Shown one piece after another: positions 35,101 through 41,100 of a stretch of DNA of 64,000 nt. Source of the stretch: Negaprion brevirostris (taxonomy: Eukaryota); contig JARDVH010000110.1 of NCBI GenBank assembly GCA_030324005.1, forward strand, positions 13,958,172 to 14,022,171, in the 5' to 3' direction. How positions within the stretch are numbered: the first letter of the stretch is position 1; every line of letters begins with the position of its first letter. Made by a program: the position numbers.

Positions 35101-38100
35101 TATTTGCACAGCAAGGTCCCACAAACAGCATTGTGATGCTGAGCAGATAAAACTAAAGTTTGTTTATTAATCACAAATAGGTTTACATTAACATTGCAAT
35201 GAAGTTACTGTAAAAATTCCCTAGTTGCCATGGTGTTCAGGTGAGTGAGAATTCGGTATGGCCAAGGCCCCTAACCATCGCGCCTTTCAGACTGTGAGAG
35301 AAAACTGGAGCAGCCAGAGGAAACCCACACAGACACAGCAAGAATGTGCAGACTCAGCACAGACAGTGACCCAAGCCAGGAATTGAACCCGGATCCCTAG
35401 GGCAGCAGTGCTAACCACTGTGCCACCGTGCCACCATAAATCCAGCAGGTTAGGACATCGAAGCAAGCTCCCCTACTGTTCTTTACATTGTGCCACTGTT
35501 AGGAAGCTTCCCCACCTGCCTCAGTTGACAACTTCATTGAGAAACTGGTCCACACGACCACCAAAGCTCCAGCTTGCAATAATTTAGTCAGCAGGTGAAG
35601 GAGCATGATTTACCTCAGTGCCTGTTAATCATAGAATCTTGCAACACAGTTTGTATCTTCTTGTCTGTGCCAGCTCTATGAAACAGATGCCCAATTACTC
35701 CCACTCTCCTGCTCTTTTCCCCAAAACATACACTTTTCTTGCGAAGTGTATAATCTTCCAATGACACAGTCTGTTTCCACCAACCCTTTGGAACAATGCA
35801 TTCTGGATTATAACAACTGGCTACATAAGAACAATGTCCTTACTTTCCCTCTGGTTCTATTATCGATTATCTTAAATCGTATCCTTTATTTACCAAACCT
35901 CCTGGCAGTGGGAACAGTTTCTCCTTATTTGCTCTTTTGAAACCACTAATAATTCACAATGCTCTCAAGTAAATCTTCTCTTAATCTTCTCTGCTCTAAG
36001 GAGAAACAATCCCAGTTTCTTTATCTTTCCATGTAATTGAAGTCCCTCATCTCTGACCGCAATCTGACAAATCTTCTCTGCACCAAGCTCTTCACATCTT
36101 ATTAAAGTAGGCTAAATGTTTGAGGGGCTGTCCGGGTTACTGTCTGGTCATTCTCCATGAACATTAAAACCTAGGAGCAAGAGCAGGCCACTTGGCCCCC
36201 TGAGCCTGTTGATCACACTTCATCTACATCTCAGCTCCATTCCCTGACTGTGCTTCATATTCCTCGATACTTTTGCTTAAAAAAAAATCTATTAATCTCC
36301 GTCTTGCAATCGCCAGCCCATCTCTGCATTTCGGGGCAGAGAACTCAAGATTTCCTTTATGTGGAATACCTCAAACAGCATTGCTTTAATTTTAAGATAA
36401 TATTTCCCCATGCTTATTCCTCACACCACCACTCCTCTCCCCCAACCACCCTTCCCCCCCCAACCTTGGCCCGCACTCAACTTATGAAAATAGTTTGCTG
36501 CCTCCTTAAGGGTGGCACGGTGGCACCGTGGTTAGCACTGCTGTTTTATGGTACGAGGGACCCAGTTTCAATTCTGGCCTCAGGTCACTGTCTGGAGTTT
36601 ACATGTTTTCCTCGTGTCTGCGTGGGTTTCCTCTAGATGATCTGGTTTCTTCCCAAACTCCAAAGATGTGCAGGTTTGATTGATCGACTGTGCCCCTTAG
36701 TGTCGGGGAGGATTAGTGGGGTAAGTATGTGGGGTTAGGGGGATAGGGCCTGGTTGGGATAGTTGTCCGTGCAAGCTCAATGGGTCGAATGGTCTCCTTC
36801 TGCACTGCAGGAATTCTATGAAATAATTTGCTGCCTCCTGTTAACATTTTAAATGTCTCAATCAAATTGCCCATAAATTTCTATAATTTGAAGGAATACA
36901 GGCCATGGAGCTTAGCCTCATAATTTATCTCTTTAAGAAGGTAATCATGTCATTGCTCTGGCAATTACTTGAGGAAAATAGAAAAAGAAACCTTGGTATG
37001 AAAGATCTTCTGACTGCATCCTGAAACTTTTCCCAAGGGCCAGGAAGCCAGCCTCGTGTCTACAATTGTTGAACCTGGAAGTGGATGCCAGCGATGCTAG
37101 TGAAGAACATTTAACCCATTGTATGTGACACTTCCATGTTCACCATTTGGACAGGATGCTGGGTTGGGTACGCTCTGGGTTGGGTATGCTAGCTAGCTTA
37201 GATTTCAAACATCGCTCTTGTGAGCTTGGCATGAAGCAGAGTCGAAACGATGAATCTTTCTGCACTGAGAGCTTGTGTCACCATGAGTTTGGCTGTGTTT
37301 TTTTTTATTTTTATGGCCAGTCCTTGCTGTCTGCCAACATAATGATCATTTTCATGACACATGCCAAGACAGTGTTAAGGCAGAATGATGGAATCAATGA
37401 TCTAACAGAAAGTAATAGGCATTGAGGCTGTTTCACATTCAAGAACTGCGATTGTGTCCTGACCTAGATACTTTGATGTGAGTCAGTGAATTATTGAAAC
37501 TCTTCATGCAGAAGCATTACGCATAAGAAAAAAAGACCGAGAGAGTTAGGGTGGGGAGTGGGGGGAAGGGTGGTGGTGGGGAGCAGGAGGGTAGTGGGTG
37601 GGGGGGAGTGTTGCAAAATTTTCAATGTGTTGACAATTTTACATTGGAAAATCAACATTGTTAATTGCCTCACCAGTCCAGAAATCCTTACCATCCTGTT
37701 TGACGTGACATTCAAGGCCCATTTAACATTAGTACCTGAATAGTTGGTCAGACTTGACTGGAGCTAGCTGCGCATGCTGGGGTTATTGGAGGTCAGAGCT
37801 GCAGCTCATTTGCATCACAATATCAAAGCAATCTAGCACTTGCTGAATGTATAATTTTTTTTGTACCTTATTCTCAATCAAAGTCCAGTTCAGAACAGAT
37901 CCAAGCTGACAAAGACAGGCCATTCTTCCCATCTTGGGCTTGATCAAACAAGATCCAAGCTGACAGGGTGAGGCATTACATTCCTTCCCAGGCTTAATCT
38001 GAGCTTCATCTGAGCCAAAAGGCCCAGATGTTTTTTAAAACATCGCTTCTGGTGAAGCCTCAGTGTAACCTCATTGGCCAAGACCGGATGCAGGATCAAA

Positions 38101-41100
38101 AACGACGCTTGATCTTAGCCAAAAAGCCGAGAAGTGACTCACTGAATGCATAATGTATACTACCGCACTTCTACTGACGTAGCTGTTCATGAATGATTCT
38201 CTTTAACAGACAAGAATCAGTAGATTAAGGATATTATGCTTTGCTCCTTCATCAGCGTGATATGGTAGGGTGGCACAATGGTTAGCACTGCTGCCTCACA
38301 GCGCCAGGGATCCGGGTTTAATTCCTGACTGGGTCACTGTCTGTGTGGAGTTTGCACGTTCTCCCCACGTCTGCGTGGGTTTCCTCCAGGTACTCCGGTT
38401 TCCTCCCACAGTCCGAAAGACATGCTGGTTAGGTACACTGGCCAATCTAAACTCTCCCTCAGTGTACAGGTGCCGGAGTGTGGCGACTAGGGGATTTTTG
38501 CAGTAACTTCATTGCAATGTTAATGTAGGCCTACTTGTGACAAGTAAATAAACTTTTACTTTTCATCCTGTGACACTGGATCCATGCACCATCACTCAAA
38601 CTTATTTCACAATTGATTAAATCTCTTGTCAGTGCCAGTTTGCACTCAATCCATGTTGACATATCTCTTACTCTGAATCTCTATCTCCTCTATGGGATAC
38701 CTTTGATCATCACTTCATCCAAATTCTGGAAGTCCCCATCCAGCAATACTATGGAAACTCCTTCACAGATTGCAGTGGTTCGAGAATAACATTGCAAGTA
38801 TTGTCCGGAAACAAGCCATTTGATCCAGCAAGTCCGTGCCTGTGTTTATGCTCTACACGTATTTCCTGCCACCCTTTCCTATTTAACTCTATCAGCACAT
38901 CCTTCCATTCATCCCTCGAGCAGCATCATAGAATCCCTACAGTGCAGAAGGAGGCCATTTGGTGCATCAAGTCTTCACCAACAACAATCCCACCCAAGTT
39001 CTATCCCCATAACCCCATGTATTTACGCTAGTTAGTCCCCCTGATACTAAGGGGTAATTTAGCATAGTCAATCCACCTAACCTGCACATCTCTGGAGTGC
39101 GGGAGGAAACTGAAGCACCCGGAGGAAACCCACACAGACATGAGAAGAATGTGCAAACTCTACACAGACAGTGACCCAAGGCTGGAATTGGATCCAGATC
39201 CCTGATGCTGTGGGGCAACAGTGCTGACCACTGTGCCACCGTAATTATCACGATTAGTGGTTTCCGACAGTACACTGGTATGCCGTGAAGATACCCCCAA
39301 GTGCTGTGAAAAAAGATTCAAAATGATTCATAAAAGCAGAAGGCAGCACAAATTACTGGTGTGCCTGAAACTTTTTTGTAGTGTCGAGGTGTGCCGTGAC
39401 ATAGAAAGGGTTGGGAAACACTGATATAGATTTCACTTAAATGCATCCATGCTATTCACCTTCACAACTACTTCCTGGGGTAGTGGGTCTCATCTTTGAA
39501 CCACTCTCTGGGCAGATTAACTTTTTCTGTAGCAGTGTCATATCGACCCAAAACTTTGGCTGGAATTTCTTTACCCTGCCTGCAGTCTGAATCGTCGACG
39601 GCAGAATGGAAAACCTGATGGAGAAGGCACAGATCCGTTGACTTTGGGAGGGAATTTCTGATCCTGTGATGGGCAGGAGCAGAAAATCCTGACTGTTTAT
39701 TCTGTCACTCCCTTCACAGACGAGCTAAGCCTTTCTAGCATTATTTTTAATTTCAGATTTCCAGCATCATTTTGCTTTAGTATTAACTTTTTTTTCTGAG
39801 ATCCCTATTGAATTTATTGATGACTATCTTATATGTATAGCTCCTAGATTTTTACTCCTCACCATTGAATGCATATTTACTAGGTTTACCATTTAGAACC
39901 CATCCTCAAACAGGTCCACCATCAGCAACCTCCTTTCAATATAAAAGTACCCCATCTTAAGAATGCTCACTGCCTCATTCTCAAGGGCAACACACAGGGG
40001 GTGTCAAATGTTAGCCTTGTTACCAGCATGCACATGTCCAAGGATTAATACTTCTAAAAAGTCCAACTCCTTCTTGCCACTCCATCTTGCCTTCCTTCTT
40101 CAATTTACAAACATTTTCCACTTTGCGTTCTTCCTCCCATCCACTACAATAATGGTGGTAAGACCATGGGGATCCTGGAATAATAGCATGAGCAAAGTGG
40201 GCCTTGGGAAGAAGCCCCAAAAAGCCTCACTTTCTATTATTTCATTTACCTCTTCTTCCCCTGTCTGCTCTCCCAGCTGGTTCTAAGAGATCCCATGGCG
40301 TTATTCAGGGGAGAATGGGAAAGTTCCCTGAAACCCCATCTGATGGCCAAACAAAAATCAACTGGCCTTTTAACATCACTGATTTGTGACCTTAATTCTC
40401 AGTTTTGTGTCCTACTTTACAATCATGACTACACTTCAATAGTATCTCACTGGTTATGGAATGTTTTGGGACTTCAACAGCCAGAATTTTCTGGCTGTTG
40501 TCGCCAACGGGATCTTCTGGTCCCACCAGTGGTGAATGCCTGCCATTGGTTTCCCAAGGGCAGCGGGATACATAGAATGTTGACAATGGAGGGATCAGAA
40601 GAATCCGCCGTCGGCCAATGGCGAGTTGTCTCGGCCGCCGTGAAATGCGCCACGGAGATGCGAGGAGAATCCCACCCTCCCCCCGAAACACTGAAAATGC
40701 AAACAATCTCTTTCTTTCACTCTTTGTGTGGTGGTATCACCTTGTTTTGAAAAGAGGCCGAGGGTGACTGTATAACTCTGAGTTCGGATAATGTTTGTGT
40801 ATTCATCTGACCTTCTGGTCCAGTGAGCTTATCAATATTAACTGGCAGCTACAAGCTTAGCATTGTGTACACTGCCATGCTAAATTCATCAGAGCCTATT
40901 CAATTCACAGTAGGAACTGGAATTTTTAAAAGGATTTGGTAATGGTTTCTTATTTGCACTATTGGGCATAATAGTCTGTAATGCGAAACTGTCTCAGTAA
41001 ATTTCTAAGCACGTAACTGATGATACAGTTTAAGGTATCTGATGGAGCTCAAACTGCACCTCGCAGCAGTACAGACTGTAAACTCCATCCTAAAACCATC

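What the first reader, a model, noticed from the sequence alone, without database searches (positions are those of the whole stretch)
37838..38154. Candidate shark U2-snRNA-headed SINE: complete insertion with U2 head, poly(A) and 18-bp TSD
Seen: on the minus strand the element begins at U2 nt 1 and follows U2 to nt 37 (32/37). It continues with ~240 nt of non-U2 body and ends in GTACAAAAAAAA. It is flanked by ACTTGCTGAATGTATAAT and ACTCACTGAATGCATAAT, whose TG/CA difference is what independent CpG decay of one ancestral CG would give. Known: long TSDs plus poly(A) are the signature of L1/Tx1-clade target-primed reverse transcription. I know snRNA-headed SINEs (SINEU) only from crocodilians. 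Inference: this is a member of a shark retroposon family with a spliceosomal snRNA head rather than a tRNA/5S/7SL head. A second copy 16 kb away implies high copy number. Because the U2 promoter (PSE/DSE) is external, master copies would have to be transcribed from a U2-like locus. I cannot confirm it is absent from Repbase/Dfam.
Basis: partly seen in the sequence, partly recalled or inferred. Interest (0 to 1): 0.85.

Follow-up and report, generated by a model that had tools for sequence, protein, structure and literature searches.

The report
Shark retroposon with U2 snRNA heads
A 281-base retrotransposed insert in a shark genome starts with the first ~36 bases of U2 spliceosomal RNA, carries a second shorter U2 start inside, and has one relative 16 kb away, so it looks like a shark counterpart of the snRNA-headed SINEs known from crocodilians.

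Summary
On the minus strand, 38136-37856 is a 281-nt insert. It starts within 2 nt of the U2 snRNA 5' end and follows U2 to about nt 36 (Rfam U2, 30.4 bits, E 2e-5). It ends in an A7-8 run and is flanked by an 18-bp direct repeat, 15 of 18 identical.

- Module A is the U2 head, about 66 nt of unrelated sequence and an A6 linker.
- Module B1 is a second, shortened U2 head plus a 59-nt body.
- Module B2 is a partial repeat of that body plus the tail.

The locus at 21513-21590 matches module B only. It has the same shortened head and the same body (63 of 77 aligned bases) but no poly(A) or repeat flanks.

I read this as an old member of a dispersed U2-headed non-autonomous retroposon family. It resembles crocodilian SINEU, including repeated 5' addition of U2 pieces, and was probably moved by a Tx1/L1-group LINE.

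Family size, presence in Repbase or Dfam, the partner LINE and empty orthologous sites could not be tested, because no eukaryotic DNA collection was available. I class it as a new member of a known kind, of moderate interest.

The parts
38137..38154 (-). 5' copy of the target-site duplication (18 bp)
   Evidence: Direct repeat family D2, 15 of 18 identical to 37838-37855. In the control, none of 14,450 random anchors had such a match preceded by six A.
38103..38137 (-). Module A head: U2 snRNA positions about 2-36. It may extend to position 41 at 38098. All stem-loop I pairs are standard.
   Evidence: Rfam U2 RF00004: 29.7 bits. Head alone: 30.4 bits, E 2e-5, model positions 1-41. A 21-mer of the U2 head matches with 1 mismatch at 38108-38128, with none expected by chance.
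38031..38102 (-). Module A remainder: about 66 nt of unassigned sequence plus an A6 linker at 38036-38031.
   Evidence: Not similar to the B bodies (280 and 969 of 2000 shuffles score as well). It adds nothing to the U2 score. There is a weak, non-significant hit like the U4 5' stem-loop at 38078-38057 (13.3 bits, E 2.1). The predicted fold pairs it with the head (z -2.17).
38004..38029 (-). Module B1 head: a second, shortened U2 5' fragment reaching U2 position 31.
   Evidence: The U2 21-mer matches with 2 mismatches at 38004-38024. Rfam aligns model positions 1-31 with a gap at model positions 4-6.
37945..38003 (-). Module B1 body, non-U2, containing TGTCAGCTTGGATCT.
   Evidence: Body-only local alignment to the copy 2 body scores 39, reached by none of 2000 shuffles. 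The 15-mer motif is found here.
37863..37944 (-). Module B2: a 5'-truncated tandem repeat of the B body, followed by the 3' tail ending in GGTAC.
   Evidence: B1 body versus B2 scores 35, reached by none of 2000 shuffles. B2 versus the copy 2 body scores 29, also none of 2000. The tail itself is not significantly similar to copy 2 (558 of 2000).
37856..37862 (-). Poly(A) tail: A7, or A8 counting 37855, which is shared with the target-site duplication.
   Evidence: Read directly from the sequence.
37838..37855 (-). 3' copy of the target-site duplication (18 bp)
21513..21538 (+). Second locus: a shortened U2 head of the same variant as B1.
   Evidence: The U2 21-mer matches with 1 mismatch at 21518-21538. 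Rfam U2 scores 23.4 bits, E 0.0052 in 241 nt, with the same gap at model positions 4-6.
21539..21590 (+). Second locus: the B-type body. Similarity stops at ...CTTGTTTG, the same point where B1 ends. There is no poly(A) and no target-site duplication.
   Evidence: Head plus body is 63 of 77 aligned bases identical to B1. No flanking repeat or A-run was found.

Best explanation
The region 38136-37856 (minus strand) is one old insertion of a composite, non-coding, non-autonomous retroposon whose modules start with pieces of U2 snRNA.

What is shown:
- The whole 281-nt composite went in as one unit. The 18-bp target-site duplication brackets all of it, and it ends in a short A-tail.
- Its inner module B, a shortened U2 head plus a body of about 55 nt, recurs at a second, unlinked site in the window with unrelated flanks. 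Module B is therefore a repeated, formerly mobile sequence.

What is inferred:
- The RNA was copied into the genome by target-primed reverse transcription by an L1-group LINE. In a shark this most likely means a Tx1-type element.
- The U2 pieces were acquired when the reverse transcriptase reached the 5' end of its template and switched onto abundant U2 snRNA. This happened at least twice, once for the B head and once for the A head, with partial internal duplication in between. This is the route proposed for crocodilian SINEU-1 and SINEU-2.
- The U2 piece carries no internal promoter. Source copies must therefore have been transcribed by RNA polymerase II from outside, either by read-through from a host promoter or from a U2 gene promoter.

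The element is a decayed fossil with no sign of present function.
For: Retroposition:
- Flanking repeat 15 of 18 identical, with an A-run abutting it.
- None of 14,450 random anchors gave such a configuration.

U2 origin of the heads:
- Rfam U2 is the best family at all three heads.
- Three sites match a 21-mer of the U2 head with at most 2 mismatches, with none expected in shuffles.
- A whole-window sub-threshold scan finds U2 only at these two loci.
- All stem-loop I pairs are standard in 3 of 3 heads. No mismatch marks appear over that hairpin.

Family rather than independent chimeras:
- B1 and the second locus share the same shortened head variant. Rfam puts the same gap at model positions 4-6 in both. 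Module A has the full 5' sequence.
- They share non-U2 body sequence, with none of 2000 shuffles scoring as well.
- They are 63 of 77 aligned bases identical overall.
- Their flanks are unrelated.

Not transcribed by RNA polymerase III:
- T4-T5 runs lie inside every head.
- No conserved A or B box is present.

Precedent and partner:
- Kojima 2015 (PMC4494074, Results and Discussion read) describes poly(A)-tailed SINEU with recurrent 5' addition of U1 or U2 pieces, partial duplications and a dimeric subfamily, mobilised by Tx1.
- A passage in the whale shark genome paper (PMC8455134) says chondrichthyans have only fragments of L1 but do have Tx1.

Age:
- 3 of 18 differences between the target-site duplication copies.
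- About 18% divergence between B1 and the second locus.
Against: - Only two loci were seen. An nhmmer profile of the B units found no further copy in the window.
- The second locus has neither poly(A) nor target-site duplication. Its similarity ends after about 78 nt.
- The 3' tail of element 1 is not significantly similar to anything at that locus (558 of 2000 shuffles). A full-length shared family structure is therefore not shown.
- Module A has no second copy in the window. The A+B composite may be a one-off.
- No LINE reverse transcriptase or endonuclease was found among the 168 stop-to-stop ORFs scanned out of 177 of at least 70 aa. The partner is inferred only from the tail type.
- The nick site implied by the duplication is AT-rich but is not the classical L1 TT|AAAA (the L1 consensus is recalled).
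- Genome-wide copy number, other sharks, Repbase and Dfam were all out of reach.
Confidence: 0.6

Rival explanations
1. The U2 heads are not captured snRNA. They are the upstream half of a U2 gene, co-transcribed with a source element that sits at the conserved insertion site of U2-gene-targeting LINEs (Keno of the Tx1 clade, and Utopia). Transcription from the external U2 promoter would give an RNA that starts at U2 nt 1, runs to about nt 38 and continues into the element. On this view the family is an escaped non-autonomous derivative of a Keno-like LINE.
For: - Section 6 of PMC4640811 says U2 sequence downstream of Utopia insertions starts at nt 39, so nt 1-38 are expected upstream. It also says Keno uses the same site.
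- The module A head follows U2 to position 36, possibly 41. That fits within error.
- Kojima 2015 reports that the crocodilian Tx1 group moving SINEU clusters with Keno, and that one Tx1 family has a U2 head.
- It would answer how a promoter-less head gets transcribed.
Against: - The B-type heads stop at U2 position 31 and are shortened at the 5' end. A fixed junction at nt 38 is not seen in 2 of 3 heads.
- Two heads stacked in one element, with U2-like heptamers reiterated at module junctions, fit serial template switching better.
- No U2 sequence from nt 39 onward follows the element. No Keno-like coding sequence is in the window.
- The end of the U2 similarity in module A cannot be placed to the base.
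Confidence: 0.2
2. This is a one-off chimeric retrocopy. During a single LINE-mediated event the reverse transcriptase copied an ordinary short repeat (module B), then jumped to another RNA and to U2 snRNA, as in human U6-, U1- and U2-containing chimeric pseudogenes. No U2-headed family exists, and the U2-like start of module B is incidental.
For: - Module A occurs once in the window.
- An A-rich linker sits exactly at the A/B junction, as expected if the enzyme jumped onto the tail of another polyadenylated RNA.
- Such chimeras are documented in human (summarised in the Kojima 2015 Discussion).
Against: - Module B itself starts with a U2 fragment.
- That same head variant is joined to the same body at an independent locus. 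At least the inner U2-body junction was inherited and not made in this event.
Confidence: 0.15
3. It is not a mobile element. Either it is a degenerate U2 gene, pseudogene or other structured small-RNA locus, or the repeats and flanks arose by local duplication and chance.
For: The B1 and module A RNAs fold somewhat better than shuffles (z -2.63 and -2.17).
Against: - The U2 similarity stops at positions 31-41. Scores are below Rfam's gathering cut-off (29.7, 23.4 and 17.9 against 46).
- The alignments to the 3' half of U2 add no score.
- The flanking 18-mer with an abutting A-run is not a chance configuration.
- The two loci share only the module and not their flanks.
- The other two units fold no better than shuffles (z -1.23 and -0.41).
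Confidence: 0.04

Closest known systems
SINEU of crocodilians (SINEU-1, -2, -3; Kojima 2015, PMC4494074)
   Same: - A short non-coding retroposon with a 5' end derived from U2 snRNA, a poly(A) tail and a target-site duplication.
- Internal T-runs and no RNA polymerase III promoter.
- Stacked U2-derived pieces, partial internal duplication and a dimer-like build. [quoted passage not shown]
- SINEU-3 keeps the first 32 bp of U2. The shark B head keeps U2 up to position 31.
   Different: - The host is a carcharhiniform shark. The paper states that no SINEU was detected outside crocodilians.
- No U1 piece was seen.
Common descent versus independent origin is therefore open.
- Only two loci are known here, against thousands of copies in crocodilians.
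- No target preference is evident from the two flanks.
Chimeric snRNA retropseudogenes made by L1 template switching (human U6/U1/U2 chimeras; Buzdin 2002 and Garcia-Perez 2007, as summarised in the Kojima 2015 Discussion)
   Same: An snRNA fragment at the 5' end fused to another RNA's copy, with one poly(A) and one target-site duplication around the whole. This is the same enzymology as I infer for the origin of the heads.
   Different: Those are independent single events. Here the inner head-body junction recurs at a second locus.
U2-gene-targeting LINEs Keno (Tx1 clade) and Utopia (NeSL clade), PMC4640811
   Same: They link U2 nt 1-38 physically to a retrotransposon 5' end. The length of the module A head, 36-41 nt, is compatible with that.
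   Different: The element here is 281 nt, non-coding and inserted in ordinary intergenic or intronic DNA. No U2 sequence lies downstream of it. The B-type heads end at position 31.

Membership tests
SINEU (snRNA-headed SINE class, Kojima 2015) | 5' region derived from a U1 or U2 snRNA gene | tested here: met
   Rfam U2 is the best hit at all three heads: 30.4 bits, E 2e-5; 17.9 bits; 23.4 bits. The 21-mer search found 3 sites with none expected.
SINEU (snRNA-headed SINE class, Kojima 2015) | Short (<500 bp) non-coding retroposon with a 3' poly(A), and a target-site duplication when young enough | tested here: met
   Element 1 is 281 nt with an A7-8 tail and an 18-bp duplication, 15 of 18 identical. 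This is not met at the second locus, which has no A-run and no flanking repeat.
SINEU (snRNA-headed SINE class, Kojima 2015) | A multi-copy family with a shared structure, not a sum of independent chimeras | tested here: inconclusive
   Two loci share the head variant and the body. There are no further copies in the 64 kb. The tail is not shared. Genome-wide copy number cannot be tested with these tools.
SINEU (snRNA-headed SINE class, Kojima 2015) | Sequence homology of the body to the SINEU-1, -2 or -3 consensus | not testable with these tools
SINEU (snRNA-headed SINE class, Kojima 2015) | Mobilisation by Tx1-type LINEs (shared target preference, or a shared head or tail) | not testable with these tools
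   No LINE coding sequence was found in the window. The only indirect support is that Tx1, but no full L1, is reported in chondrichthyans (passage in PMC8455134).
Functional U2 snRNA gene | Full-length match above Rfam's gathering score, including the Sm site and 3' stem-loops | tested here: not met
   The gathering scan found 0 hits. The best score is 29.7 against a cut-off of 46, and only positions 1-36/41 carry the score.
Classical RNA polymerase III SINE (tRNA, 5S or 7SL head) | Internal A and B boxes, and no internal T4+ terminator before the tail | tested here: not met
   - Neither box lies within 2 mismatches in a conserved place. There is one B-box-like 11-mer in copy 2 only, and one A-box-like 11-mer with 2 mismatches in B1 only.
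- There are four T4-5 runs in element 1 and two in copy 2.
- The box consensus motifs were recalled from memory.
- No tRNA, 5S or 7SL hit was found.
Insertion of a U2-targeting LINE (Keno or Utopia) in a U2 gene | U2 nt 1-38 upstream and U2 from nt 39 downstream of the element | tested here: not met
   The upstream-type fragment is compatible for module A only. Downstream of the element lies the duplicated 18-mer, not U2. No other U2 fragment is in the window.

The most novel reading that the evidence does not exclude
Sharks evolved their own family of retroposons headed by spliceosomal snRNA, independently of crocodilians. The U2 head marks source copies lodged at the ancient Keno/Utopia integration site inside U2 genes (nt 38|39). 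The strong external snRNA-type RNA polymerase II promoter would then drive an RNA that begins at U2 nt 1 and runs into a non-autonomous Tx1 derivative. If so, snRNA-headed 'SINEs' would be a recurrent by-product of U2-targeting LINEs across vertebrates. The open question of how SINEU is transcribed would become directly testable.
Probability: 0.2. Interest if true: 0.65.

Novelty: new member of a known kind. Interest (0 to 1): 0.45.

Why it matters
SINEs with snRNA heads are the one SINE class without an internal promoter, and how they are transcribed is unresolved. In the literature I could search they are reported only from crocodilians.

A shark family would do two things:
- It would show that the class is either far older than thought or arose more than once.
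- It would give a second, independent system in which to ask whether the heads come from template switching onto snRNA or from co-transcription with U2 genes.

For annotation, such elements produce sub-threshold 'U2' hits that should not be counted as U2 genes or pseudogenes.

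Tried and rejected
- **More copies in the window.** blastn with short words and an nhmmer profile of the three B units found nothing beyond the two loci.
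- **Other snRNA-derived pieces.** A whole-window sub-threshold Rfam scan found U2 only at the two loci, and no U1, U4, U5 or U6.
- **Ends of the second locus.** I looked for a target-site duplication and poly(A) there. None was found, and the best flank match was 7 nt.
- **Tail similarity.** The tail of element 1 is not significantly similar to the second locus (558 of 2000 shuffles).
- **Module A remainder as U2 3' half.** Rejected, because the head alone scores as much as the whole alignment.
- **Module A remainder as U4.** There is only a 22-nt, 13.3-bit hit with E 2.1, which is not significant.
- **Partner LINE in the window.** I scanned 168 of the 177 stop-to-stop ORFs of at least 70 aa against Pfam. 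These were 18 and 150, taken from the list. The last 9 of the list that were not, all beyond 60.6 kb, were not scanned. Only FAM196 and an LTR-type RT_RNaseH_2 fragment matched.
- **RNA polymerase III boxes.** No conserved match.
- **Structured-RNA reading.** Fold z-scores were -2.63, -1.23, -2.17 and -0.41, which is unconvincing.
- **Literature.** Nine searches found no report of an snRNA-headed SINE in cartilaginous fish. The 12-nt body motif hit only two unrelated papers, judged irrelevant from their titles and abstracts and not opened.
- **Supplements of Kojima 2015.** They may bear on whether the shark body is related to SINEU-1.
- **Collections.** The genome collection holds only bacteria and archaea, so I spent no scan on it.

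Full report
**What is there**

Read on the minus strand, the sequence from 38154 to 37838 runs as follows:
- An 18-mer at 38154-38137.
- A 281-nt insert at 38136-37856.
- The same 18-mer again at 37855-37838.

The insert ends in GGTAC plus an A-run at 37862-37855, whose last A is shared with the repeat. The two 18-mers are 15 of 18 identical. Two adjacent differences are TG versus CA, which is what independent decay of one CpG would give. The third is a transition.

As a control I took 14,450 anchor 18-mers spread over both strands of the window. I asked how many have a match of at least 15 of 18 lying 100-600 nt downstream. Twenty-one did. None had such a match directly preceded by six A. The flanks are therefore a real target-site duplication around a poly(A)-ended insert.

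**The U2 head**

Rfam's U2 model aligns its positions 1-36 to 38138-38103 with high posterior probability (29.7 bits, E 5.4e-4 for the 801 nt searched). Searching only the 45-nt head gives 30.4 bits, E 2e-5, model positions 1-41. All of the U2 signal therefore sits in the head, and the alignment of the following sequence to the 3' half of U2 is filler.

In a scan of the whole window the hit has E 0.043. It is below the gathering score of 46, so the gathering scan lists nothing.

Model position 1 is a mismatch. The base at position 2 is also the last base of the duplicated 18-mer.

A 21-mer of the U2 head, allowing up to 3 mismatches, occurs three times in the window against none expected. The sites are 38108-38128 and 38004-38024 in the insert, and 21518-21538 on the plus strand. 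The insert divides as follows:
- **Module A (38136-38031):** the U2 head, then about 66 nt that I could not assign, then TTTT and A6.
- **Module B1 (38029-37945):** a second, shortened U2 fragment. Rfam aligns it to model positions 1-31 with a gap at positions 4-6. A 59-nt body follows.
- **Module B2 (37944-37863):** a 5'-truncated tandem repeat of that body plus the tail. B1 body against B2 scores 35, a value that none of 2000 shuffles reached.

Because the target-site duplication brackets all three, the composite was inserted as one piece.

**The second locus**

The stretch 21513-21590 on the plus strand has the same shortened head. Rfam places the same gap at model positions 4-6. I note that a shared 5' truncation near U2 position 6 with one substitution would fit equally well. 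Either way it is a state shared with B1 and not with module A.

The same body follows. The body-only alignment scores 39, reached by none of 2000 shuffles. Head plus body is 63 of 77 aligned bases identical to B1.

Similarity stops at ...CTTGTTTG, exactly where B1 ends. Beyond that point the locus is not significantly similar to the tail of element 1 (558 of 2000 shuffles). I found no A-run and no flanking repeat. Sequence outside the module is unrelated.

No further copy turned up with blastn or with an nhmmer profile.

**Host and surroundings**

The window is from a shark. A single uninterrupted ORF at 52570-54006 on the minus strand matches Pfam FAM196. It is 96% identical to INSYN2B-like of Mustelus asterias, 83% to Scyliorhinus canicula, and less to other sharks, rays and chimaera. 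The window is not human.

A 22-mer of a tRNA-SINE-like repeat occurs 12 times in the window, against two loci for the U2-headed sequence. That gives a very rough sense of relative abundance.

Of the 177 stop-to-stop ORFs of at least 70 aa, I scanned 168 against Pfam. Only FAM196 and an LTR-type RT_RNaseH_2 fragment matched. No candidate partner LINE lies in the window.

**How it most likely works**

Shown: retroposition of the composite as one unit, and recurrence of the B head-body junction at an independent site.

Inferred from established knowledge of non-LTR retrotransposition: an A-tail with a long target-site duplication points to target-primed reverse transcription by an L1-group enzyme. 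A passage in the whale shark genome paper (PMC8455134) states that chondrichthyans have only fragments of L1 but possess Tx1 elements. Tx1 is therefore the likeliest partner, as in crocodilians.

The heads carry T4-T5 runs and no conserved A or B box (the box motifs are recalled). Transcription by RNA polymerase III is therefore unlikely, and transcription must have come from an outside promoter.

For the origin of the heads I favour serial template switching onto U2 snRNA, for four reasons:
- Two heads are stacked in one element.
- They end at different U2 positions, 31 and 36-41.
- An A-rich linker sits at the A/B junction.
- A U2-like heptamer (GATCAAG and close variants) recurs five times in the insert, partly at module borders. 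No 272-nt window elsewhere has three or more. This pattern was defined after seeing the data.

All seven stem-loop I pairs remain standard in 3 of 3 heads. With so few substitutions this says little.

**Comparison with what is known**

I read the Results and Discussion of Kojima 2015 (PMC4494074). SINEU is described there as poly(A)-tailed, under 500 bp, headed by U1 or U2, with internal oligo-T and no promoter. [quoted passage not shown] It is mobilised by a Tx1 group related to Keno. The paper states that none was detected outside crocodilians.

The shark element matches that description feature by feature at the level of architecture. Whether its body is homologous to SINEU-1 could not be tested.

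Nine literature searches found no snRNA-headed SINE reported from cartilaginous fish. From a vertebrate transposon review (PMC5381603) I read passages only. It mentions such SINEs only for crocodilians. This is no proof of absence from repeat databases.

**A lead worth following**

Section 6 of the Utopia paper (PMC4640811) states that U2 sequence downstream of Utopia insertions starts at nt 39, so nt 1-38 are expected upstream. It also states that Keno, a Tx1-clade LINE of fish, frogs and others, uses the same site.

A source element sitting there would be transcribed from the U2 promoter with U2 nt 1-38 as its leader. The module A head (36-41 nt) fits that length. The B-type heads (31 nt and shortened at the 5' end) do not. 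I keep this as the main rival for the origin of the head, and as the most novel reading.

**What stayed unchecked**

- Genome-wide copy number.
- Other chondrichthyan genomes.
- Empty orthologous sites.
- Source loci with snRNA promoters.
- RNA data.
- Repbase and Dfam.
- The SINEU supplementary material.

The N runs in the window were left untouched, and none lies within 2 kb of element 1 or within 600 bases of the second locus.

**Verdict**

- The element is best filed as a probable shark member of the snRNA-headed retroposon class. It is old and decayed.
- Family status rests on two loci.
- Interest is moderate. It would rise if a genome-wide search shows a real family absent from repeat libraries.

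Noticed in passing
window 52570-54006 (-): A large single ORF matching Pfam FAM196 (3.9e-36). It is 96% identical to the INSYN2B-like protein of Mustelus asterias, which places the window in a carcharhiniform shark. Element 1 lies about 14 kb downstream on the same strand.
   Followed up: partly
window 38269-38290 (-) and 11 other sites: A 22-mer typical of an abundant tRNA-SINE-like repeat occurs 12 times in the window with at most 3 mismatches, against none expected. One copy sits about 115 nt upstream of element 1.
   Followed up: partly
window 38114, 38010, 37999, 37945, 37879 (-): The U2-head heptamer GATCAAG and close variants occur five times in the 281-nt insert, partly at module junctions. 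No other 272-nt window reaches three. The motif was defined after seeing the data. It hints at slippage or microhomology-guided switching.
   Followed up: partly
window 38057-38091 (-): The unassigned part of module A contains a stretch that the predicted fold pairs with the U2 head (z -2.17). It may be an inverted partial copy of the head. The same stretch gives a weak hit like the U4 5' stem-loop (13.3 bits, E 2.1). Neither result is significant.
   Followed up: partly
window 21553-21563 (+): An 11-mer one mismatch away from the B-box consensus (recalled) lies in the body of the second locus. It is not conserved in B1 or B2, and T4 runs precede it.
   Followed up: partly
window 61172-61855 (+): An ORF fragment with an RT_RNaseH_2 domain (6.1e-9), likely a remnant of an LTR retrotransposon.
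   Followed up: no
window 24252-24421 (+): A sub-threshold Rfam hit to SCARNA7 (25.7 bits against a gathering score of 65, E 0.038 in the whole-window scan). It is probably chance.
   Followed up: no
window, 19 N runs (e.g. 2047-2446, 16175-16475, 54615-54750): There are 1,987 N bases in 19 runs, consistent with a gapped draft assembly or masking. They were left as they are, and none is close to either locus.
   Followed up: no
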